DNA of 64,000 nt, taken from IMG/VR virus record IMGVR_UViG_3300001199_000005, positions 32,001-96,000 of that record. One strand, given 5' to 3'. This document shows, one piece after another, positions 12,697 through 38,266 of the stretch. Every line of letters starts with the position of its first letter. Within the stretch, counting starts at the first letter, position 1. Position numbers and translations under genes: made by a program. The DNA is from a virus. The notes under the pieces were generated by a model that searched no databases, was not told where the DNA came from, and worked only from the letters and a program-made list of their open reading frames with translations.

Positions 12697-15643
12697 ATCT
12701 TTGCATCAGCAACAGAAGGAATTTTATCTAAGAAGTAACCTAATGATTTAATCATAACTTCTTCTAGCTTAGCTCTAGCTTCTTCTGCATGAATTCTAGG
12801 CACTGAGCAAACAAGCTCATCATGTACTGATAAAACTATTCTTCCCCATCCCATCTTTTCAAAGTATTGAAACATCCAAATCATAGCTAGCTTACAAGCC
12901 TCTGCATTAGTTCCTTGAATAGGGGCATTAGCGGCTTCACCATAGTCATCCCCTTTAAAGAATCTTATTCTACCAAGTTTAGATGTTCTAAGATAGCAAC
13001 ACCATTCTTCATCTAAAAGTCTAGGCGTGTTGGCTAATTTAATACAACTATCTAAGTAAGCTGATAGTTCTGGAATTGCTTTGTCAATGGCGCTTGATAT
13101 AGCTTTCGACACTTGCTCCCTTTCATGTGCAGGTCTAAACATATTGATATATTTAGCAAGTACACCGTAGATACGTTTCCATCCACCCTTGTACAGTTTT
13201 GAAAATGTCACTGACTTATGAGTATCCCTAAAGTCTTGTGGAACTATATCTTTACCCTTTACTATAACAGTCTTTTTATTCTTACTAATTTCAAAAGTCT
13301 CATCACCAAGTATAACATTCATACTAACTGTGGCAAGTTCGCTGTGCATATCAGTTCCTTTTAGTAGAGAATCTGATATTAATTTATCTCCTGAGTAGTC
13401 GGCTGCGATTCTACAACGGTAACACGTTGGACTGTACCTTATTCCTGTCTCTGGGATTGTGCCGTCCAGTCTCTACACCTTCAACACTTTTTTTTAAAGC
13501 GAAGCTTGGCTCGGTATTAAAGAAGCATCCTTCACCGACTTTGACACATTTTTACACGTAGATTGCTCTACGAGGAGACCATCAAACTTCATCTTTTTGC
13601 TCTTAAGATAAAATTTGGCTTCCGAATAAATTGAATTATAAAAAGATTTTATTGAATTTTGCTCTGAAACTGTTACTATATAAATCCTATTTCTACCCTC
13701 TTTATTATAGCCATTTAATTTAGCACGAATATTTTGGGAGAGTAAAAAATTTACAATTTGGTTTGCAAACAACTCTGAACATGTAGCAATAGATACCCGT
13801 AAGTACTTATTAGATTTACTTCTTTGCATATATACACACCCGTCACCATCAAAAGCTCCTCTAATAAATGACCATGTCATTGGGATGCCTAGATTAAGTG
13901 TTAAAGATTTTCTCTTAGTTATTCCAAGAGACTCTAAAAATAAGTGTGTTTCTTTTTGCGTAAAAACTACTCTATACTGCTTTTTATCAGAATTTTTAGA
14001 TAAATAGTGAGTGATTTTAGTATTATAGCCTATAAAGACACAATATTGCTCTAAATGTTCTTTATGTATGGACGCTAATCCAATTCTAAAAGCATTTGAA
14101 GAAATATAGCCATCTGTTGCTAACATACCCAACCAATAATTTGTTGAGCTCGATTTTAAATCTATAAAAGGATTTGATTTTACCACACTATTACTTTCAG
14201 TAATAGTTCTGTGTTTTACATCCTTGGAGATTATTCTTCGTATTGAAGTGGGATAGGTATTATACAGACTAGCAATATGTCCATAACTTTTTCCACTATT
14301 ATACAAATCAATAAATAAATCTTTAAATTGTACTAATGACATAATATTTTTGTTATCCACAAATATACGTTATATCATTAAACATTCAATTATTGTTACA
14401 AATAAATCTCAGCACCCGACATATCTGCAGCCACAAACACCTCACCCTCATTATCAGGAATGAAACAGGCTCTTATCTCAGGTTTCTTAGGAATATTTTG
14501 CAGATTAACATCAGCAGAAGAAAGTCGACCTGTTTCAGTAAAGCATTGGGAATATCTTGAACATAAGAATCCATTCATATCCAAACTCTTCAAGAACTCT
14601 GTACCATAAGTGCTTATTAATTTACTATACTCTCGATAAACTAATAGCAGCTCTAGAAGCTCTTTTAAAGGACATTCAGGATGCTCATTCAAGTAAAGCT
14701 GAAGTGTATCTTCACCACTCGATGGTTTAAGGACTACTTTATTGTCCTTTCTTTCTTCCACCATAGGTAATGGTAGCTCAAGCCTTGTGAATAAATCAAG
14801 TATCTGGTCACTAGAAGCATAATTGATATTGCCCACATTCTTATTTTCAGTAATTTTAGAATCACCGAATAAAGAAGTTTGCTCTATCTTTACTTTAACT
14901 CTTTCTCTAGTATAGATACCACCCCTTATAGTAGGATATATTCTACTTAATCTAACTAATTCTTTATCCATTAACTTCTCTGTTTCGAAAAGTTTCTTGT
15001 CCCAAAAAGTAATTAACTTATTCCACGAATTTGTATCTATCTTAACACCTCTATAATTCATTTGAGCTATAATAGGTGCTAATGTATTTTCCATCCTAAT
15101 AATGTGCATCAGCTCTAACCTTTCAGCTTTAGCTAAAATAGCTTCTCGTAACTTAAACATATAGATAGTGTCTGCAGCAGCATAGTCCAACTGCTCTTTA
15201 GAGAAAACATCGGTAGGTTTCATGCCTATAAATGATTTCTGTAAGTGTTCTTTCTGTGTGCTATCCATCTTTATTCCAAGAAGTTTATCTAACACACTTG
15301 GCAAGCTTGCAGACAATTTTAGGAGTTTTAACTCACCTTTACTATTCTTTCTTAATTCTTTTTTACCGTTAGTCAAGATTTGAAATCCTAACATAGTGCA
15401 GAATACTTTAGGAAGTATTCCATACTCATGGTAAATAAAACCTAATTCAAACACAGCATTATGAGCAATAAGCTCACAACTATTATAAAAATCAATCCAT
15501 TCTTCTCTTGTGTGTTCAGCTGGTTTCTTTACTATCGTAGTTCCATCCTTATAAGTAATAGAAACTAATAATATTTTATCTACTTTTGGATTTAAACCTG
15601 AAGTTTCAAAATCTAATCCAACTAATTCTTCTTTATGTAGCAT
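12675..15643 (-). CDS. polA: DNA polymerase family A with 3'-5' exonuclease, two exons: join(14406..15643, 12675..13413), 658 aa
   Basis: Exo DFETSG, HNAVFE, YAAAD; TGRLSS; spliced motif A DMSGAEI-RIAAD; motif B KSVTFSKLY; motif C VHDEL. Confidence 0.9.
13494..14342 (-). CDS. Intron-encoded double-motif LAGLIDADG homing endonuclease
   Basis: YWLGMLATDG and FIRGAFDGDG; ATG 14342 preferred because TATATTTG overlaps the GTG at 14360. Confidence 0.88.
   Translation of the reverse strand: MSLVQFKDLFIDLYNSGKSYGHIASLYNTYPTSIRRIISKDVKHRTITESNSVVKSNPFIDLKSSSTNYWLGMLATDGYISSNAFRIGLASIHKEHLEQYCVFIGYNTKITHYLSKNSDKKQYRVVFTQKETHLFLESLGITKRKSLTLNLGIPMTWSFIRGAFDGDGCVYMQRSKSNKYLRVSIATCSELFANQIVNFLLSQNIRAKLNGYNKEGRNRIYIVTVSEQNSIKSFYNSIYSEAKFYLKSKKMKFDGLLVEQSTCKNVSKSVKDASLIPSQASL
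14360..14367 (-). promoter_or_regulatory. Bacteroidota-type -7 promoter element for the intron endonuclease
   Basis: TATATTTG matches TAnnTTTG. Confidence 0.5.
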
Positions 15644-19712: not shown

Positions 19713-19955
19713 CTACCCTCTACTATTATTTGATGGGGAGTTAATTGACTCATATCGTTGAATGTTTAGTCTATTTTCTTTACTTAATTCTCTAGCCAAG
19801 TTCTCCACATAACTATAAGTCTTACTATGTATTGTCGCTAACTTTCTAAAAGAGAACTTATACAGAAGTAAATCTCGTATTAGTGCTTCTCTTAGTATTC
19901 TACTATGATTCGTTTGAATAGGCATACAGACAGCATTCAATATCTGTAGGTTCAA
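19713..19955 (-). CDS. Hypothetical protein
   Basis: Short ORF; start uncertain. Confidence 0.35.
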   Translation of the reverse strand: MNLQILNAVCMPIQTNHSRILREALIRDLLLYKFSFRKLATIHSKTYSYVENLARELSKENRLNIQRYESINSPSNNSRG

Positions 19956-20325
19956 ATATATTACAAATTACTTTATAATATTGTTCCCAATCTCCCCCAG
20001 CTAATCCACAGCCTATAAATACAGGCATGGCGATAGACTTTGGCTTAAGCGCTACAATAGCGTACATACACTTCTTAAACCATTCTAATCTTGGTTCTTT
20101 ATCTGATTTTCCAGGATAATCCTGTGCATAGGCATTAATTATTCTACCATGAACTGATATTTCTCCAGGAATACGTTTGAAGTTGGAATCTATATAGGTA
20201 TTAGCTTCTGGAAAAACTTTGAATATTTGATTAGCAAGACCTGATGAATGATAACTTCTGCAATTACATTGATGTATGATGTAATCTTCTTTTGCTTTTA
20301 ATATATCACCGTTTATTTGTAACAT
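19903..20325 (-). CDS. Macro-domain ADP-ribose hydrolase (Poa1p/DarG-like)
   Basis: GDIL, IIHQCNC, GLANQI, IINAYAQ, IGCGLAGGDW. Confidence 0.85.
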   Translation of the reverse strand: MLQINGDILKAKEDYIIHQCNCRSYHSSGLANQIFKVFPEANTYIDSNFKRIPGEISVHGRIINAYAQDYPGKSDKEPRLEWFKKCMYAIVALKPKSIAMPVFIGCGLAGGDWEQYYKVICNIFEPTDIECCLYAYSNES

Positions 20326-20582
20326 GTTTTAAAGTTATAGTTAATTGTATCTCTTCCTACAATAGAATATCCTGTACTAATAATAGTATCAGCTTTATAC
20401 TCTAACCATAATGACAGGCTATGCCCTTTATCATGGAAATGAACTGAATTCTCATACTCCACATAAAACAAATCAGGTGCTGGTACTTTATAGACCAACA
20501 CCTGATTAGAAAATTCAACCTGTAATTGACAGCCATAACTTGGGCATATTACAGCCCAAGCTATAAGCAGTTCCTGTATCAT
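20313..20582 (-). CDS. Hypothetical protein
   Basis: 89-aa ORF coupled to neighbours. Confidence 0.5.
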   Translation of the reverse strand: MIQELLIAWAVICPSYGCQLQVEFSNQVLVYKVPAPDLFYVEYENSVHFHDKGHSLSLWLEYKADTIISTGYSIVGRDTINYNFKTCYK

Positions 20583-22381
20583 ATATTGAATTTTTCTACA
20601 ACAACTTTTACTTCGTCGTAGGCATTATTTCTATATGAAATATCTAACGCTGTATAAGGATTAAGAATATCCCAATCTTTTACATTCATAACTAGTTTGG
20701 TAATGTTCTCCACTTGACCAGGAACAAAAATAAGTCCAGGAACTTCTTTGAAATCTCTTACATCCCTGTTTTGTCCAACATCCATCAAGACAACAAGTTC
20801 TGGTCTGTAGCCAACTTCTACCTCCATAATCTTCATGGCTGCGTCAAATGAACGAACCACGTCACGCTCATTATTAAAGTTACCATCACTGATTAATAAC
20901 CAGATTGGATATGAACTAAGTAGTTCTCTAATACTATCCCTTTCAGCAAGACTGGCTGTTTTCATTATACCGTGTATAGCTTCGCCAATAGAAGCTAAAT
21001 TAGTACCATTCCCAGTTTGAATAGCTGATAAGAAACCACTTAACTGCTTATAGTTCTCCAACAAAGACTTTCTTTTATCTACCAACGGCTGTTTTGCTGC
21101 TTGCACAGCTTCACCAAATCTAGTAGCTTTCTTGTCAACGTAGGAAATATATCTAGCCTTATCAGAAAATGTCCAGAATCCTGAATCAGTTTCGGTCTTT
21201 AGCAGAACAATGGTAAGTAAAAACTTAGCAACATCAATAGGCTTAATGGAGCCACTAGAACCACCATACATAGAGCCACTATCATCAACAAACACCATTA
21301 CTTTATCAGTACCTAGCTTAACAGTCTTCAAATACTCTTCAGCAGCAAGAGCGTCCACAGTTTCAGTTCTTAAAGCTTCTAGTATTGTTTTTGTATTATA
21401 TACACCACGACTAACTTTAGCTTCTTTCTCTAATTGCTTTAAGTTGATTTGGTCGGTCAAAGATAACTCTTTGCCTTCGTTATCAGCTTTAAAATCTCGT
21501 AGTGTTTGATTGCTTTTCTCTTTCGATTCTTGCCATTCTTTGAAAATGTCAATCATAGGAGTATCTACAATCTTCCATAATTCAGGCTGTTTAACTATTC
21601 TATTATAGACTCGTTTTCTAGCACCACCAGTAAGGTGGTCAAGCCAAGTCAAGAAGTCTTGTTTAGTAAACTTAAGTATTTCCTTAGTAGAAAACATTAC
21701 TGACTCTAACTGCTTGTTATGTTCTTTCTTAAACTCTTCGGCACCGATATACCTAGTATTCTTAGGATAATATTTAATATCCCAATTCATTACTGAACTA
21801 AGCTCAATAGCGAACTTATGTTTTAGTCTTTGAGCGGTGACAGAGGCCTTTGACCTAGCTACTTTGATAGTCTTATCTTTTAACTTCCTCTTAGGCTTTG
21901 AATGAGGAAGTACTAACTGTTTAGCAGCTATTACTCTTCTCATAGGATTGCCCTTAACCCAAGCAGCGAATATTTTTGCCTGTGTAGCTAAATCATAGAT
22001 ATTGTTTCTATCTGTGGTTACATAGTATAGCTCTGATAATGAGGTGAACTCAATCAATACACGTACTATTGCTTCCAAGAATTCAGGTTTGTCTATAAAT
22101 TTAACAAATATCCAGTTAAATATTACTTGTCCTGACTTTCTATTAGCGTAACCACCAATAGTTCTTTGACTTTTCGCATAAATCCAATGCTGTCTATTTG
22201 TAATTGCAATACATTCTGCTAGTAATACAAAGAACAATTGTTTGTGCTCTTTAGTAGTACATTCATGCCAAGCATTAGTAATATCTGATTCTGAAATCAA
22301 ATCTTTACCTATTGCGTTTGATAATACCAGTAGTGCTGGTTTGTTATCAAAAGGGGTCTTTTTTTGAGTTAGTGTTACCAT
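20579..22381 (-). CDS. TROVE/Ro60-like (DUF2828-type) protein with C-terminal vWA domain
   Basis: 600 aa; basic helical N-terminus with RTIGGYANR; MIDAS VDDSGSM, TFS, GNGTN, LISDGNF; lies downstream of Y-RNA-like genes. Confidence 0.7.
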   Translation of the reverse strand: MVTLTQKKTPFDNKPALLVLSNAIGKDLISESDITNAWHECTTKEHKQLFFVLLAECIAITNRQHWIYAKSQRTIGGYANRKSGQVIFNWIFVKFIDKPEFLEAIVRVLIEFTSLSELYYVTTDRNNIYDLATQAKIFAAWVKGNPMRRVIAAKQLVLPHSKPKRKLKDKTIKVARSKASVTAQRLKHKFAIELSSVMNWDIKYYPKNTRYIGAEEFKKEHNKQLESVMFSTKEILKFTKQDFLTWLDHLTGGARKRVYNRIVKQPELWKIVDTPMIDIFKEWQESKEKSNQTLRDFKADNEGKELSLTDQINLKQLEKEAKVSRGVYNTKTILEALRTETVDALAAEEYLKTVKLGTDKVMVFVDDSGSMYGGSSGSIKPIDVAKFLLTIVLLKTETDSGFWTFSDKARYISYVDKKATRFGEAVQAAKQPLVDKRKSLLENYKQLSGFLSAIQTGNGTNLASIGEAIHGIMKTASLAERDSIRELLSSYPIWLLISDGNFNNERDVVRSFDAAMKIMEVEVGYRPELVVLMDVGQNRDVRDFKEVPGLIFVPGQVENITKLVMNVKDWDILNPYTALDISYRNNAYDEVKVVVEKFNI

Positions 22382-22597
22382 ATTTTCCTATTGTTAAATG
22401 TAAATGTACTTGATTTTTCTGAAGAGTCTGTACTCTGCTGAGTCACTTTCTCATTAAGGAGTTCAACAAACTTACTAAAAGATATTTTTTCTCTGTGAAG
22501 TTGGTTAAACCAATCTCTTACTTGAGCTACTATAAAAATTTTTTTCATTCTAATATATTATAAATATTGTCTACTTGAAATCCAGCAGCCTTACAAA

Positions 22598-22920: not shown

Positions 22921-22960
22921 TAAAAAAAAATAAGCCTGCCGTTTTTACTTCAGCAGGCTA
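22921..22960 (-). terminator. Intrinsic terminator ending the small-RNA array
   Basis: AGCCTGC/GCAGGCT stem followed by a T9 run. Confidence 0.75.
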
Positions 22961-22968
22961 TGTAAGAA

Positions 22969-23061
22969 GACATACTATAAGGCGGATTCGAACCGCTTTC
23001 TTCTGATTTCAAGTCGGACGCTATACCAAAATAGCAGCTGTTAATGAGTTGTGAGTATGTC
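22969..23061 (-). ncRNA. Array unit H: closing stem + CACAAC + D arm, Ser(UGA)-type anticodon arm and T arm; no acceptor stem
   Basis: GACATACT/AGTATGTC; TCCGA-CTTGAAA-TCAGA; GCGG-TTCGAAT-CCGC. Confidence 0.75.
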
Positions 23062-23070
23062 AAAGGCTGA

Positions 23071-23125
23071 AGCTTACTATTATTTTAAACGGACTGTTAT
23101 TTTTTTGTATAGTTGTAAGTAAGCT
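23071..23125 (-). ncRNA. Array unit G: minimal unit with no clear tRNA part
   Basis: AGCTTACT/AGTAAGCT + TACAAC; A-rich insert with weak AAC-AGTCC-GTT hairpin. Confidence 0.65.
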
Positions 23126-23156
23126 GAGTATCTATAATTTTTTTTAGTCTAGGAAA

Positions 23157-23222
23157 AGAATTCTATATTGGTCAATTTAAAAGGTTGATGCTCTACCGAG
23201 CGGGTAAAGTTGTAAGAATTCT
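23157..23222 (-). ncRNA. Array unit F: D-like hairpin + Lys(UUU) anticodon arm
   Basis: AGAATTCT/AGAATTCT + TACAAC; GCTC-GGTA-GAGC; TCAAC-CTTTTAA-ATTGA. Confidence 0.75.
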
Positions 23223-23231
23223 AAAGAAGTA

Positions 23232-23293
23232 AGCATACCATATTGGTCAATTTAGCAGATTGGTGCCCGAAGGCTCTAAGTTGTAGGTATGCT
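23232..23293 (-). ncRNA. Array unit E: UUCG hairpin + Ser(GCU) anticodon arm
   Basis: AGCATACC/GGTATGCT + TACAAC; GCC-TTCG-GGC; CAAT-CTGCTAA-ATTG. Confidence 0.75.
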
Positions 23294-23324
23294 GAATATC
23301 TATTATTTGAAATAGTCTAAGTAA

Positions 23325-23380
23325 GACATGCTTTTTGTTTGGCAACATTATCAGTGTTTATTTTTAGTTGTAAGCATATC
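23325..23380 (-). ncRNA. Array unit D: isolated Ile(GAU) anticodon arm
   Basis: GATATGCT/AGCATGTC (one U-G pair) + TACAAC; AACA-CTGATAA-TGTT. Confidence 0.75.
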
Positions 23381-23394
23381 GAAAGTCTTGAATA

Positions 23395-23461
23395 AGAACA
23401 CTATAGTTGTCAAAAACCAAAATTTGATGCCCGAATAGGCGTTTTTAGTTGTGAGTGTTCT
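23395..23461 (-). ncRNA. Array unit C: small hairpin + probable Gln(UUG) anticodon arm
   Basis: AGAACACT/AGTGTTCT + CACAAC; GCC-TATTCG-GGC; TCAAA-TTTTGGTT-TTTGA (8-nt loop, register ambiguous). Confidence 0.7.
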
Positions 23462-23473
23462 GAATGTCTGAAA

Positions 23474-23569
23474 GAAGTACTATAATTTAAACACCCAAGG
23501 ATTTCTCCTGCAGAGTATTATTGGAATCGAACCAATTTTAACCATTTTGTTAATGATTGTAAGTACTTC
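23474..23569 (-). ncRNA. Array unit B: T arm followed by a capped acceptor-like stem
   Basis: GAAGTACT/AGTACTTC + TACAAT; ATTGG-TTCGATT-CCAAT; ATACTC...GGGTGT enclosing AGGA-GAAA-TCCT. Confidence 0.7.
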
Positions 23570-23583
23570 AATATGTCTTGAAA

Positions 23584-23697
23584 AGAATACTATTATCCTG
23601 CTTTCGCAGTCTATACAGGAGTTGAACCCGTTACTGATTGATTATAAGTCAATTGCTCTACCAGATGAGCTAATAATTAATGAGTTGTAAGTATTCT
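23584..23697 (-). ncRNA. Array unit A: D arm, Ile(UAU) anticodon arm, T arm and GAAA hairpin; no acceptor stem
   Basis: AGAATACT/AGTATTCT + TACAAC; GCTC-ATCTGGTA-GAGC; ATTGA-CTTATAA-TCAAT; ACGGG-TTCAACT-CCTGT; CTGC-GAAA-GCAG. Confidence 0.78.
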
Positions 23698-23703
23698 GTT
23701 TTG

Positions 23704-23802
23704 TGCGGAAAACTGGGGTCGAACCAGTAGAACATATTTCGCTTTAGTTTGTCGAGGTCTAAAGCCTTTGAAATACTGCTTTGCCAATTTGCATATTTCC
23801 AC
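23704..23802 (-). ncRNA. tRNA-like RNA (Leu-like body) with greatly extended anticodon arm
   Basis: Acceptor GTGGAAA/TTTCCGC + A; D arm TGC-AAATTGGCAAA-GCA; T arm ACTGG-TTCGACC-CCAGT; anticodon arm GTATTTC/GAAATAT + GCTTTAG/CTAAAGC. Confidence 0.7.
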
Positions 23803-23808
23803 ATTTTT

Positions 23809-23852
23809 AAAAAGACCTGCCGTGTTTCAATATCCTTCGACACGGCAGGTTT
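23809..23852 (-). terminator. Intrinsic terminator after the YrlA-like RNA
   Basis: ACCTGCCGTGT/ACACGGCAGGT 11-bp stem + CTTTTT. Confidence 0.75.
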
Positions 23853-23854
23853 GT

Positions 23855-24000
23855 GCAGCGCATCTTTTAGAAAGTTTAATGCTGATGTATCCAAACGTTC
23901 TACCATTTAAACTACTCACCCTTGTTGTTATTGTTTTTGAGGGCAAGAGGGGGCTCGAACCCCTAATTTTTTGGAGGTCTGACTTTCTATATGCAACTGC
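23855..24000 (-). ncRNA. Circularly permuted tRNA-like RNA on a long bulged stem (YrlA-type Y RNA architecture)
   Basis: Order: long stem 5' strand, T arm AGGGG-TTCGAGC-CCCCT, loop-closed acceptor CTTGCCC/GGGTGAG, D arm GTTT-AAATGGTA-GAAC, long stem 3' strand. Confidence 0.8.
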
Positions 24001-27784: not shown

Positions 27785-28573
27785 TTAAGAGTTGAGAAAA
27801 TTATTTAATGATAAAACATGATTCTTCAGGTTATCAATCTTATTGTAGTTATTCAGGTATGCTTTGTTAAGCACTTCTTCTAACAAAATAATTGCGAACC
27901 TTATCTCAGTAAAGTGTTTTAAAATATACTTTACATTTCTGGATTGCAGGATAATATTATTTTTCCTCCAATGATGGTAGATGTCTTCTACCCCTTTGAT
28001 TGAATAGTGATTTAACACATCTTCAATTTTGTAATCTACGCCTTGATATTCTATCAAGTAAATATAAAAGTCTGGTCTAAGAACACTAAGCATCTTTCTT
28101 TCATGTGCGCCTGTAATTCTTATGTCGTCAAGAACAATTACTGTTCTTCCCCTTAATAAATTGGTATCAATGTATAGTTCATCATTCTTAATAAGCTCGG
28201 TTCTTTCATCTAAATCCATACTACAATAAGGCTCGTTATGCCTAATTATTCTATGTACTTTAGTTAGATGTATCCTTTGCTTATAGAAAGTAGCTAATCT
28301 TTGAACGATAAATTCAGATAACACAAAGATTGGATTTGCTAGATTATCAGAACTGCCAGCCACTATAACAATTTCTTCATCTGTGGTTATAATACTTATA
28401 ACATAATTAGCAAATTCTTCTGCGAGCTTTTTAGTAGCTGTTATTACTCCATACTTATATTGACTATAAAGAGTGAGAATTAATTCATCTACTTCTCTTA
28501 TGTCTTTAAAGTTATGAAGGGCTAAAGTGCTGGCATGTTCTTGTATGTGATTTCTGTAATCTTCTCTCCCCAT
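27785..28573 (-). CDS. Phosphoribosyltransferase-like protein
   Basis: PRPP-binding-type motif VIVLDDIRITGAHE; YSQYKYG. Confidence 0.72.
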   Translation of the reverse strand: MGREDYRNHIQEHASTLALHNFKDIREVDELILTLYSQYKYGVITATKKLAEEFANYVISIITTDEEIVIVAGSSDNLANPIFVLSEFIVQRLATFYKQRIHLTKVHRIIRHNEPYCSMDLDERTELIKNDELYIDTNLLRGRTVIVLDDIRITGAHERKMLSVLRPDFYIYLIEYQGVDYKIEDVLNHYSIKGVEDIYHHWRKNNIILQSRNVKYILKHFTEIRFAIILLEEVLNKAYLNNYNKIDNLKNHVLSLNNFLNS

Positions 28574-38161: not shown

Positions 38162-38266
38162 TTGAGGGCGTTACCCTCGTTTCTTTTTGTTTGTCAGCCG
38201 TATACTCTAATTACTTACCCATTTATGTAAAAACAATGTAAGTATACAATCATCATCAGGTATTTT

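What the first reader, a model, noticed from the sequence alone, without database searches (positions are those of the whole stretch)
22969..23697. Tandem array of eight small RNAs that display different tRNA anticodon arms on a common scaffold
SEEN: eight consecutive - strand units (55-114 nt) share the layout 8-bp stem / YACAAY / variable cargo / complementary stem. The stems differ in sequence but always pair: AGAATACT-AGTATTCT, GAAGTACT-AGTACTTC, AGAACACT-AGTGTTCT, GATATGCT-AGCATGTC, AGCATACC-GGTATGCT, AGAATTCT-AGAATTCT, AGCTTACT-AGTAAGCT, GACATACT-AGTATGTC. This is covariation, and a U-G pair favours the - strand. Six cargos are stem-loops with tRNA-type loops: CUUAUAA (Ile UAU), UUUUGGU(U) (probably Gln UUG), CUGAUAA (Ile GAU), CUGCUAA (Ser GCU), CUUUUAA (Lys UUU) and CUUGAAA (Ser UGA). 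One cargo is a T arm plus capped stem and one is unclear. None has a chargeable acceptor end. KNOWN: these loops match standard bacterial tRNA loops, and anticodon nucleases such as PrrC and PARIS AriB cut host tRNA-Lys to abort phage infection. INFERENCE: a modular library of non-chargeable anticodon mimics held by one protein through the shared stem and motif. They could act as decoys or sensors for anticodon nucleases, or as baits for synthetases or modification enzymes. I do not recall such an anticodon-display array being described.
Basis: partly seen in the sequence, partly recalled or inferred. Interest (0 to 1): 0.95.

Follow-up and report, generated by a model that had tools for sequence, protein, structure and literature searches.

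The report
Handle-tagged tRNA-mimic RNAs beside phage Ro60
A 153-kb uncultured phage carries eight back-to-back small RNA genes that share one conserved "handle" and each display a piece of tRNA, mostly an anticodon arm; the same handle sits beside, and often encloses the start codon of, a Ro60-like RNA-binding protein gene in about 55 related phages, so these are probably an undescribed kind of Y RNA with unusually fast-changing anticodon loops.

Summary
Eight - strand units (22969-23697) each have an 8-bp closing stem, YACAAY after the 5' half and tRNA-derived cargo. About 0.1 such units are expected by chance.

The 600-aa protein 588 nt downstream (20579-22381) has no Pfam hit but folds as Ro60/TROVE plus vWA (Z 11-14 to Ro60 structures). 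In 58 loci with homologues (about 30% identity), handle units occur 178 times on the gene strand and 3 times on the other. In 35 of 55 loci the handle encloses the Ro-like gene's own start codon. A reverse DNA search returned almost only contigs that carry the gene.

Relatives mostly mount whole or circularly permuted tRNA-like bodies with weak acceptor stems. Between near-identical bodies the anticodon loop changes about four times faster than the rest (p 1e-5).

My best reading is a new Y-RNA-like family: the handle binds the Ro-like protein and a tRNA part is displayed. Binding and expression are not shown. The decoy idea for anticodon nucleases is plausible but untested.

Rfam and the papers I searched do not describe it. 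Other sessions of this scan found the same design on other phage DNA, with an ACAGCAA handle and DUF2828 proteins.

The parts
23584..23697 (-). Unit 1. Handle AGAAUACU/AGUAUUCU plus UACAAC. Cargo is a tRNA-like body (D arm, anticodon arm with loop CUUAUAA, T arm, 3-bp acceptor remnant) plus an extra GAAA-capped hairpin.
23474..23569 (-). Unit 2. Handle GAAGUACU/AGUACUUC plus UACAAU. Cargo is a small hairpin, a T arm (UUCGAUU loop) and a GAAA-capped acceptor-like stem. This is the 'top half' of a tRNA, with no anticodon arm.
23395..23461 (-). Unit 3. Handle AGAACACU/AGUGUUCU plus CACAAC. Cargo is a hairpin plus a 5-bp stem with the 8-nt loop UUUUGGUU.
23325..23380 (-). Unit 4. Handle GAUAUGCU/AGCAUGUC (one U-G pair) plus UACAAC. 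Cargo is a 4-bp stem with loop CUGAUAA, followed by GCCA.
23232..23293 (-). Unit 5. Handle AGCAUACC/GGUAUGCU plus UACAAC. Cargo is a UUCG-capped hairpin plus a stem with loop CUGCUAA, followed by ACCA.
23157..23222 (-). Unit 6. Handle AGAAUUCU/AGAAUUCU plus UACAAC. Cargo is a D-arm-like hairpin plus a stem with loop CUUUUAA, followed by ACCA. Its 3' tail is identical to that of unit 5.
23071..23125 (-). Unit 7. Handle AGCUUACU/AGUAAGCU plus UACAAC. Cargo is A/U-rich with no stable fold.
22969..23061 (-). Unit 8. Handle GACAUACU/AGUAUGUC plus CACAAC. Cargo is a D arm, an anticodon arm (loop CUUGAAA), a short variable loop and a T arm, with no acceptor stem.
22922..22959 (-). Intrinsic-terminator-like hairpin (9 bp) followed by U9, closing the array.
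   Evidence: -14.6 kcal/mol, z -3.6
20579..22381 (-). 600-aa protein with a Ro60/TROVE ring plus vWA fold and a DxSGS MIDAS motif. It is the presumed binder of the handle.
23698..23988 (-). Two further tRNA-mimic RNAs upstream in the same intergenic block. One is a YrlA-like permuted RNA (23866-23988, 21 bits, below cut-off). The other is a tRNA-like RNA with a long central arm (about 23700-23797). A terminator-like hairpin lies between them. Neither carries the UACAAY handle.
38200..38247 (-). Possible ninth, solitary handle unit (GUAUACU, UACAUU ... AGUAUAC) next to tRNA-Lys(CUU). This is a borderline call.
   Evidence: 22.3 bits, E 0.07

Best explanation
The eight units are genes for small RNAs of one family built from two modules. 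Module 1 is a 'handle': a 7-8 bp closing stem that joins the 5' and 3' ends, with consensus NGWYACU paired to AGURWCN, followed on the 5' side by single-stranded UACAAY. Module 2 is a displayed piece of tRNA. I infer that the handle is the binding site of the Ro60-like ring protein encoded 588 nt downstream. That makes these RNAs the Y-RNA equivalents of a divergent phage Ro60 family. By analogy with Ro60 and Y RNAs, the protein would stabilise the RNAs, and the RNAs would give the particle its specificity. In most relatives the protein probably also binds a copy of the handle that encloses its own ribosome-binding site and start codon, and so limits its own synthesis. The active part of the cargo is the anticodon loop, which changes much faster than the rest of the RNA. 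The most likely use (about 0.3) is as non-chargeable baits or decoys for host factors that read anticodon loops, with anticodon nucleases as the first candidates. The array is probably transcribed as one precursor up to the terminator at 22922-22959 and then cut into units. Shown: anatomy, covariation, the fold of the protein, the genomic linkage and the loop hypervariability. Inferred: binding, processing, autoregulation and the target.
For: 1) The units are real and not chance.
2) The protein has the Ro60 fold. The Foldseek top 12 hits are all Ro60/TROVE over about 600 columns (E 2e-6 to 1e-4). VIA-align gives Z 11.2-13.9 with 376-409 residues aligned, above the vWA-only hits. The MIDAS DxSGS motif is invariant in 25 homologues. 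It matches PHROG 850 'RNA-binding protein' at 7e-10. 27 of 30 named Atlas clusters are TROVE/vWA_Ro60.
3) Linkage. In 58 loci with homologues, 178 handle units lie on the gene strand against 3 on the other. 53 lie within 300 nt downstream of the gene. A handle-only covariance model gives 29 hits at E<=0.01, all on the gene strand. A reverse search for one handle class in IMG/VR gave 28 hits on 26 contigs. 22 contigs carry the gene, one true unit sits on a 56%-complete contig, and 3 look like chance matches in coding sequence.
4) The stem is under RNA-level selection. 177 of 262 CUYACAAY sites find the complement of their own upstream 7-mer within 220 nt, against 33-39 with swapped 7-mers and 3 of 53 on the other strand. 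Compensatory pair types are AU18/UA13/GC6/CG4 and CG24/UA16.
5) 37 of 55 Ro-like genes have CUYACAA within 70 nt upstream of the start, where 0.05 per gene is expected. In 35 of them the partner strand lies at -5 to +60, so the start codon sits inside the handle loop.
6) In 8 independent near-identical pairs the loop differs at 17 of 65 positions and the body at 31 of 455 (Fisher p 1.2e-5). Examples are GCU/GAU, GCU/UUU, GGG/GGU and UGG/UCG. Units 5 and 6 of the window differ in the same way (GCU/UUU).
7) The cargo is not made to be charged. None of the eight has a usable acceptor stem. Some cargo in relatives is circularly permuted or a half-molecule. The 'Ser' anticodons GCU and UGA sit on bodies without the long variable arm that bacterial tRNA-Ser needs (established knowledge). 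Scaffolded bodies in relatives have A/U-rich acceptor stems, unlike the canonical tRNAs of the same phages.
Against: No experiment or RNA data were available, so binding, transcription and processing are all inferred. The Ro-binding motif of known Y RNAs (GNCGAAN0-1G, GGUCCGA, CGAA) is absent. The protein matches no TROVE HMM, and its kinship rests on a predicted structure (pLDDT 78, TM 0.3-0.5). In this window the array is separated from the gene by two small ORFs, and the gene lacks the handle around its start. These phages cluster tRNA, tmRNA and the Ro-like gene together, so part of the linkage could reflect a shared 'RNA island'. In relatives several scaffolded bodies score as good full-length tRNAs (55-65 bits) and might be matured into working tRNAs. 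Nothing links the loops to any particular nuclease. Fast loop change could also reflect relaxed constraint or retargeting of real tRNAs.
Confidence: 0.6

Rival explanations
1. The units are caged or precursor tRNAs. The handle is a leader-trailer helix of real tRNA genes, a processing or storage signal that the Ro-like protein may bind. Release by RNase P/Z and CCA addition would give working tRNAs that replace host tRNAs. The units in this window would then be decayed copies.
For: In relatives many scaffolded bodies are full-length by the Rfam tRNA model (55-65 bits). ARAGORN of 171 as tRNAs with 7-bp acceptors. Phage tRNAs that replace cleaved host tRNAs are known (my own knowledge).
Against: None of the eight window units has an acceptor stem, yet all eight keep perfect handles and neat capped hairpins, which is not what decay looks like. 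Permuted units, half-molecule units and the unit around the mRNA start cannot give tRNAs. 'Ser' and 'Leu' anticodons sit on short-variable-arm bodies. Anticodons switch between near-identical bodies. Acceptor stems are A/U-rich, often with a 1:72 mismatch. No CCA-adding enzyme was found in this phage.
Confidence: 0.12
2. The units are guide RNAs, not decoys. The displayed loops pair with complementary loops or ends of host RNAs, by anticodon-anticodon kissing or by UGG-containing loops pairing with the NCCA 3' end as in T-box RNAs. This would bring chosen host tRNAs to the Ro-like ring for protection or decay.
For: Loop hypervariability fits retargeting by base pairing. UGG-containing loops recur (UUUGGGU, UUUUGGU, UUUUUGGU), including unit 3. 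Ro60 with a Y RNA tethers a nuclease to substrates in Deinococcus and Salmonella (PMC4201824).
Against: No complementary target was identified. Most loops are ordinary tRNA-type 7-nt loops whose simplest reading is mimicry. Pairing over 3-5 nt is weak. This is speculation from sequence alone.
Confidence: 0.1
3. The handle is recognised by something other than the Ro-like protein, for example a processing RNase or another phage protein. The Ro-like gene would then be only a neighbour in an RNA-gene island.
For: tRNAs, tmRNA and handle units cluster in these phages. In this window two small ORFs and DUF7873 also lie in the block. Binding is untested.
Against: Units abut the Ro-like gene on both sides in nearly all loci, and the handle encloses that gene's own start codon in 35 of 55 loci. 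The reverse search returns contigs with the gene. Ro60 proteins are known to bind stem-closed RNAs encoded next to them (PMC4201824, PMC12135203).
Confidence: 0.1
4. This is a DNA-level feature: short inverted repeats of mobile cassettes or recombination sites that trapped tRNA gene fragments, with no RNA function.
For: Inverted repeats flank tRNA-derived DNA. Homing endonuclease genes are nearby in the genome.
Against: The motif is strictly strand-specific (178 against 3). Stems covary instead of keeping one repeat sequence. There is a U-G pair in unit 4. The design is conserved between phages whose Ro-like proteins are only about 30% identical. The handle occurs around a start codon. UACAAY has no complementary partner on the 3' side, unlike integron attC core sites.
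Confidence: 0.03

Closest known systems
Ro60 (Rsr) with Y RNAs, especially YrlA (Rfam RF02553; Chen et al. 2014, PMC4201824) and Yrl1/Yrl2 of Thermus phage phiLo (PMC12135203)
   Same: Small RNAs are encoded next to a Ro60-fold ring protein. The 5' and 3' ends close a stem, with a conserved single-stranded motif on the 5' strand. The other module mimics tRNA (T and D arms, sometimes permuted). Several RNAs occur per locus. The system is found in phages.
   Different: The motif is UACAAY, not GNCGAAN0-1G or CGAA. The protein matches no TROVE HMM. There are up to eight units in tandem. Cargo includes complete anticodon arms, whole cloverleaves and half-molecules. Anticodon loops are hypervariable. 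A handle copy encloses the protein's own start codon in relatives. No unit reaches any score with the YrlA model.
Handle RNAs beside DUF2828/Ro60-like genes noted by other sessions of this scan (ACAGCAA handle; unpublished AI notes)
   Same: The same design: a closing stem plus a short conserved motif after the 5' half, tRNA bodies or anticodon hairpins as cargo, arrays flanking a Ro60-fold gene in large phages.
   Different: The motif here is UACAAY. ACAGCAA is not enriched in these loci. The partner protein is a separate subfamily without a DUF2828 hit.
Class I RNAs of dictyostelid amoebae (PMC7919456)
   Same: RNAs of about 60 nt with a short covarying stem joining the ends, a conserved unpaired motif directly after the 5' half of the stem, and a variable remainder. 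From memory the motif is CCUUACAGCAA, which would share CUUACA with the handle here.
   Different: They are eukaryotic, with their own promoter element. No tRNA-like cargo or Ro60 link is reported. Only a 6-nt overlap exists, and that rests on my memory of the motif. No homology test is possible with these tools.
Phage-encoded tRNAs that escape or compensate for host anticodon nucleases (PrrC, PARIS AriB and others; my own knowledge, not checked here beyond PMC11455837)
   Same: Phage-borne tRNA-shaped RNAs whose anticodon loops change under pressure from host defence.
   Different: Those are chargeable tRNAs used in translation. The units here lack acceptor ends and are tied to a Ro60-like protein.

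Membership tests
Y RNA / YrlA (RF02553) | Encoded next to a Ro60 orthologue | tested here: met
   A Ro60-fold gene lies 588 nt downstream on the same strand. Units flank the gene in 50 or more related loci.
Y RNA / YrlA (RF02553) | 5' and 3' ends pair into a closing stem | tested here: met
   8/8 pairs in all eight units. Covariation is shown.
Y RNA / YrlA (RF02553) | Ro-binding motif GNCGAAN0-1G (bacteria), GGUCCGA (animals) or CGAA (phiLo) in the 5' strand | tested here: not met
   All units carry UACAAY instead. The motif definitions are taken from PMC4201824 and PMC12135203.
Y RNA / YrlA (RF02553) | Match to the Rfam covariance model at the gathering score (69 bits) | tested here: not met
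   There is no YrlA hit on 22969-23697 even at E<=10. The only hit (21 bits) is the neighbouring RNA at 23866-23988.
Y RNA / YrlA (RF02553) | tRNA-like domain with T and D arms | tested here: inconclusive
   Units 1 and 8 have both arms in normal order. Unit 2 has a T arm only, unit 6 a D arm only, and units 3-5 and 7 have neither. In relatives about 66 of 171 units are in normal order and about 27 are permuted (heuristic).
Y RNA / YrlA (RF02553) | Physical association with Ro60 | not testable with these tools
   Needs RIP or EMSA.
tRNA (RF00005) | Complete cloverleaf with a 7-bp acceptor stem and a free 3' end for CCA and charging | tested here: not met
   Unit 1 matches model positions 5-66 only. 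Unit 8 scores 28.7 bits (cut-off 29) without an acceptor stem. ARAGORN calls none of the eight.
Ro60/TROVE protein (for 20579-22381) | HEAT-repeat ring followed by a vWA domain with a MIDAS motif | tested here: met
   AF2 model with pLDDT 78. Ro60 structures are the top hits over residues 12-590. D366, S368, G369 and S370 are invariant.
Ro60/TROVE protein (for 20579-22381) | Match to Pfam TROVE (PF05731) or DUF2828 (PF11443) | tested here: not met
   There is no Pfam hit for the protein. Only weak vWA hits appear among the 25 homologues. A profile against PDB sequences gives E 0.44 to the phiLo TROVE protein, on the vWA part only.
Dictyostelid Class I RNA | Short closing stem, an 11-nt conserved motif next to the 5' half, and a variable rest | tested here: inconclusive
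   The design is the same. The sequence overlap is only CUUACA and rests on memory. No Rfam hit to such a family appeared at E<=10.

The most novel reading that the evidence does not exclude
The array is a retargetable decoy library. Each handle-tagged anticodon arm is held and stabilised on a Ro60-like ring, and it soaks up or reports one host factor that reads that anticodon loop, most likely an anticodon nuclease. Phages would re-aim a unit by one or two base changes in the loop, or by duplicating and editing units. That would make this a phage counter-defence built from Y-RNA-like particles.
Probability: 0.3. Interest if true: 0.9.

Novelty: new variant of a known kind. Interest (0 to 1): 0.78.

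Why it matters
What Ro60 and its Y RNAs do is still unclear after four decades, and the purpose of the tRNA-like module of bacterial YrlA is unknown. This phage family makes the tRNA module explicit, multiplies it and varies it. It shows whole, permuted and half tRNAs on one protein handle, with the anticodon loop as the fastest-evolving part. That gives a direct hypothesis: the module is read by anticodon-specific factors. It also gives simple reagents, since units are 55-114 nt with a 14-nt handle. If the decoy reading holds, it adds an RNA-based counter-defence to the contest between phages and tRNA-cutting host systems. The handle around the Ro-like start codon offers a ready assay for binding. 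The family is widespread in large uncultured phages (55 IMG/VR loci from one search) and is absent from Rfam.

Tried and rejected
- INPHARED phages gave no match by DNA or protein.
- IMG/VR searched with the single protein gave nothing. The alignment was needed.
- PDB sequence search with the single protein gave nothing.
- No RNA holder is listed among public runs. The only full holder is a groundwater metagenome DNA run that may be the source.
- The terminator scan missed the - strand hairpins because their loops exceed 8 nt. Folding was used instead.
- Reading TACAAT as a sigma-70 -10 box was rejected. The spacing to any -35-like hexamer varies with spacer length (9-31 nt), and promoter-like hits are not above shuffles.
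- G-U against A-C mismatches in stems were 16 against 9, which is only a weak lean. Strand is set by the tRNA parts instead.
- Pairing of UACAAY with the 3' linker, as a bulged helix like animal Y RNAs, fits one unit but not in general (inspection).
- An AGAC motif in the window's spacers is not conserved in relatives, where flanks are only A/U-rich.
- RtcB and a CCA-adding enzyme are absent from this 85%-complete genome. There is only a weak ligase-like hit, so no RNA-repair module is shown.
- The ACAGCAA handle of the DUF2828 systems is not used here.
- Three contigs with a pattern match lack any Ro-like, TROVE or DUF2828 gene. Their matches look like chance hits in coding sequence.
- Integron attC, MITE and pseudogene-debris readings were rejected for the reasons given under rivals.
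- Complex prediction was not used, because it does not model RNA.
Full report
**Observation.** On the - strand between 23697 and 22969 there are eight consecutive units of 55-114 nt. Each begins with an 8-nt segment followed by YACAAY and ends with the exact complement of that segment. Unit 4 has one U-G pair. All eight YACAAY words in the 1.15-kb intergenic block belong to units.

The same search on shuffled copies of the window gives about 19 hits per 64 kb on both strands. That is about 0.1 expected for this stretch. In the whole 152,878-bp virus record these are the only such units on that strand.

The stems differ at five of eight positions between units and always stay complementary.
- Unit 1 is a tRNA body that lacks most of its acceptor stem (Rfam tRNA positions 5-66, 47 bits), plus a GAAA-capped hairpin.
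- Unit 8 has D, anticodon and T arms and no acceptor stem (28.7 bits).
- Unit 2 has a T arm and a GAAA-capped acceptor-like stem.
- Units 3-6 have a small capped or D-like hairpin followed by an anticodon-type stem-loop.
- Unit 7 has no stable fold.
- A 9-bp hairpin plus U9 closes the array.

Besides tRNA, no Rfam family matches the array, even at E<=10.

**The neighbouring protein.** The 600-aa ORF 20579-22381 has no Pfam hit and matches only PHROG 850 'RNA-binding protein'. It has 46 homologues at about 30% identity, all about 600 aa, on contigs up to 175 kb. Their alignment shows an invariant DxSGS MIDAS motif.

An AlphaFold model made from that alignment (pLDDT 78) matches Ro60/TROVE structures over its whole length. 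These include Xenopus and human Ro60, Deinococcus Rsr and Thermus phage phiLo Ro60. They fill the first 12 Foldseek ranks. VIA-align gives Z 11.2-13.9 with 376-409 residues aligned, above all vWA-only hits. The ESM Atlas agrees: 27 of 30 named clusters are TROVE/vWA_Ro60. The protein is therefore a very divergent Ro60-like ring protein.

**Comparative test.** I fetched 3 loci through exact protein look-ups and 55 IMG/VR loci through the alignment.
- A simple scan (7-bp stem ending in CU, then YACAAY, then the complement within 220 nt) finds 178 units on the gene strand and 3 on the opposite strand.
- A test that does not presuppose pairing gives the same answer. Of 262 CUYACAAY sites on the gene strand, 177 find the complement of their own upstream 7-mer. 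With 7-mers swapped between sites the number is 33-39, and on the other strand it is 3 of 53.
- RNAalifold on 41 units with whole tRNA-like cargo recovers the closing stem with many compensatory pair types.
- A handle-only covariance model (R1) gives 29 hits at E<=0.01 in 34 loci, all on the gene strand. It also finds unit 8, which was not in its training set.
- Units sit mostly just downstream of the Ro-like gene: 53 within 300 nt and 48 at 300-1500 nt.
- In the reverse direction, an exact pattern for one handle class returned 28 IMG/VR matches on 26 contigs. 22 of these carry the Ro-like gene. One true unit is on a 56%-complete contig. Three look like chance matches in coding DNA, about the number expected.

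**Handle on the protein's own mRNA.** In 37 of 55 loci CUYACAA lies within 70 nt upstream of the Ro-like start codon, where 0.05 per gene is expected. In 35 of these the complementary half lies between -5 and +60, usually at codons 8-10. The ribosome-binding site and start codon therefore sit inside the handle's loop.

This is the arrangement used by many RNA-binding proteins that repress their own translation. I take it as the best indirect evidence that the Ro-like protein is what binds the handle. The window's own gene lacks this feature. There a 56-aa ORF (22377-22547) overlaps the start codon.

**Cargo in relatives.** Most units carry a whole tRNA-like cloverleaf (31-65 bits; ARAGORN of 171). 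Others are circularly permuted in the order T arm, capped acceptor, D arm, anticodon arm. Others are halves or unstructured.

Compared with the canonical tRNAs of the same phages, the scaffolded bodies have A/U-rich, often mismatched acceptor stems. Some carry Ser or Leu anticodons on bodies without a long variable arm.

**Anticodon loops change fastest.** Among 43 unit pairs whose bodies are at least 80% identical, 41 have different anticodon loops. In 8 independent pairs the loop differs at 17 of 65 positions and the body at 31 of 455 (p 1.2e-5). Switches include GCU/GAU, GCU/UUU, GGG/GGU and UGG/UCG.

In real tRNA orthologues the anticodon loop is the most conserved part. Here it is the most variable, which points to selection for change or retargeting. 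Units 5 and 6 of the window repeat the pattern: the same 3' tail and similar stems, with GCU against UUU.

**Interpretation.** The closest known system is Ro60 with Y RNAs. Those are stem-closed RNAs encoded next to the protein, with a conserved 5'-strand motif and, in YrlA, a tRNA-like module (PMC4201824). A phage example with two Y-like RNAs has been solved (PMC12135203).

The present family shares that logic but fails the family-defining tests. It has a different motif (UACAAY, not GNCGAA or CGAA), no YrlA model match and a protein outside the TROVE HMM. I therefore call it a new variant of a known kind.

The mechanism I commit to has three parts:
- The handle binds the Ro-like ring.
- The ring stabilises and presents the RNA.
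- The tRNA part, above all the anticodon loop, engages an anticodon-reading partner.

A decoy or bait role against host anticodon nucleases fits the non-chargeable design and the loop hypervariability. It has no direct support, and I put it at about 0.3. Rivals are caged precursor tRNAs, pairing guides for host tRNAs, a different handle-binding factor, and DNA-level cassettes. The evidence for and against each is given in the Rival explanations section.

**Literature and earlier notes.** Searches for Y RNA, YrlA, Ro60, TROVE, phage, tRNA-like, crAss and anticodon-nuclease decoys found no description of this RNA family.

Other sessions of this scan have reported the same design on other phage DNA, with an ACAGCAA handle next to DUF2828 proteins. 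They also noted a likeness to dictyostelid Class I RNAs. I confirmed from PMC7919456 that Class I RNAs have a short covarying closing stem with an 11-nt motif next to its 5' half. I also confirmed that ACAGCAA is not the motif used here. Any homology remains open.

**Limits.** No RNA data exist for this phage. The host is unknown to me. Other notes say Bacteroidota, which I did not test. All functional statements are inferences from sequence, predicted structure and comparative genomics.

Noticed in passing
window 38200-38247 (-): A solitary handle-like unit (7-bp stem GUAUACU/AGUAUAC with UACAUU after the 5' half) lies between a tRNA-like 3' end and tRNA-Lys(CUU). It scores 22.3 bits, E 0.07, with the handle model.
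   Followed up: partly
L004-L057, around the start of the Ro-like gene (e.g. L008:4930-5000, L042:4930-5000): In 35 of 55 related phages the handle (GUUACU, UACAAN ... AGUAAC) encloses the ribosome-binding site and start codon of the Ro-like gene. This is a likely autoregulatory operator and is absent from this window's gene.
   Followed up: yes
window 22377-22547 (-): A 56-aa ORF ends in ATGGTAA, overlapping the Ro-like start codon, which suggests translational coupling. It has no family assignment.
   Followed up: no
window 23395-23461 versus 23157-23293 (-); loops in L008, L010, L025, L042: The loop of unit 3 (UUGGU) is complementary to the ACCAA that follows the anticodon-type stems of units 5 and 6. 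UGG-containing 7-8 nt loops recur in one orthologous unit class of relatives and vary by U/G run length. UGGN is also what T-box RNAs use to pair with the tRNA NCCA end.
   Followed up: no
window 23698-23988 (-): Upstream of the array lie a YrlA-like permuted tRNA mimic (21 bits, below cut-off), a terminator-like hairpin (23815-23850) and a tRNA-like RNA whose anticodon arm is replaced by a long hairpin. None of them has the UACAAY handle.
   Followed up: partly
L005:3262-3651, L017:3265-3660, L043:3680-4192, L055:3638-4189: Related phages encode a tmRNA (49-73 bits) about 1-1.5 kb upstream of the Ro-like gene, among tRNA genes and handle units.
   Followed up: no
window 19903-20325 (-) and 27785-28573 (-): A Macro-domain/phosphatase-like gene (PHROG 335, 9e-27) lies two genes downstream of the Ro-like gene. 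A ComF-like PRTase gene lies 4 kb upstream of the array. In L003 the Ro-like gene follows TerD, vWA-TerF and TerC genes.
   Followed up: no
window 13494-15643 (-): The family-A DNA polymerase ORF stops after the exonuclease domain and the first part of the polymerase domain. A LAGLIDADG endonuclease ORF follows, so the gene may be split or interrupted.
   Followed up: no
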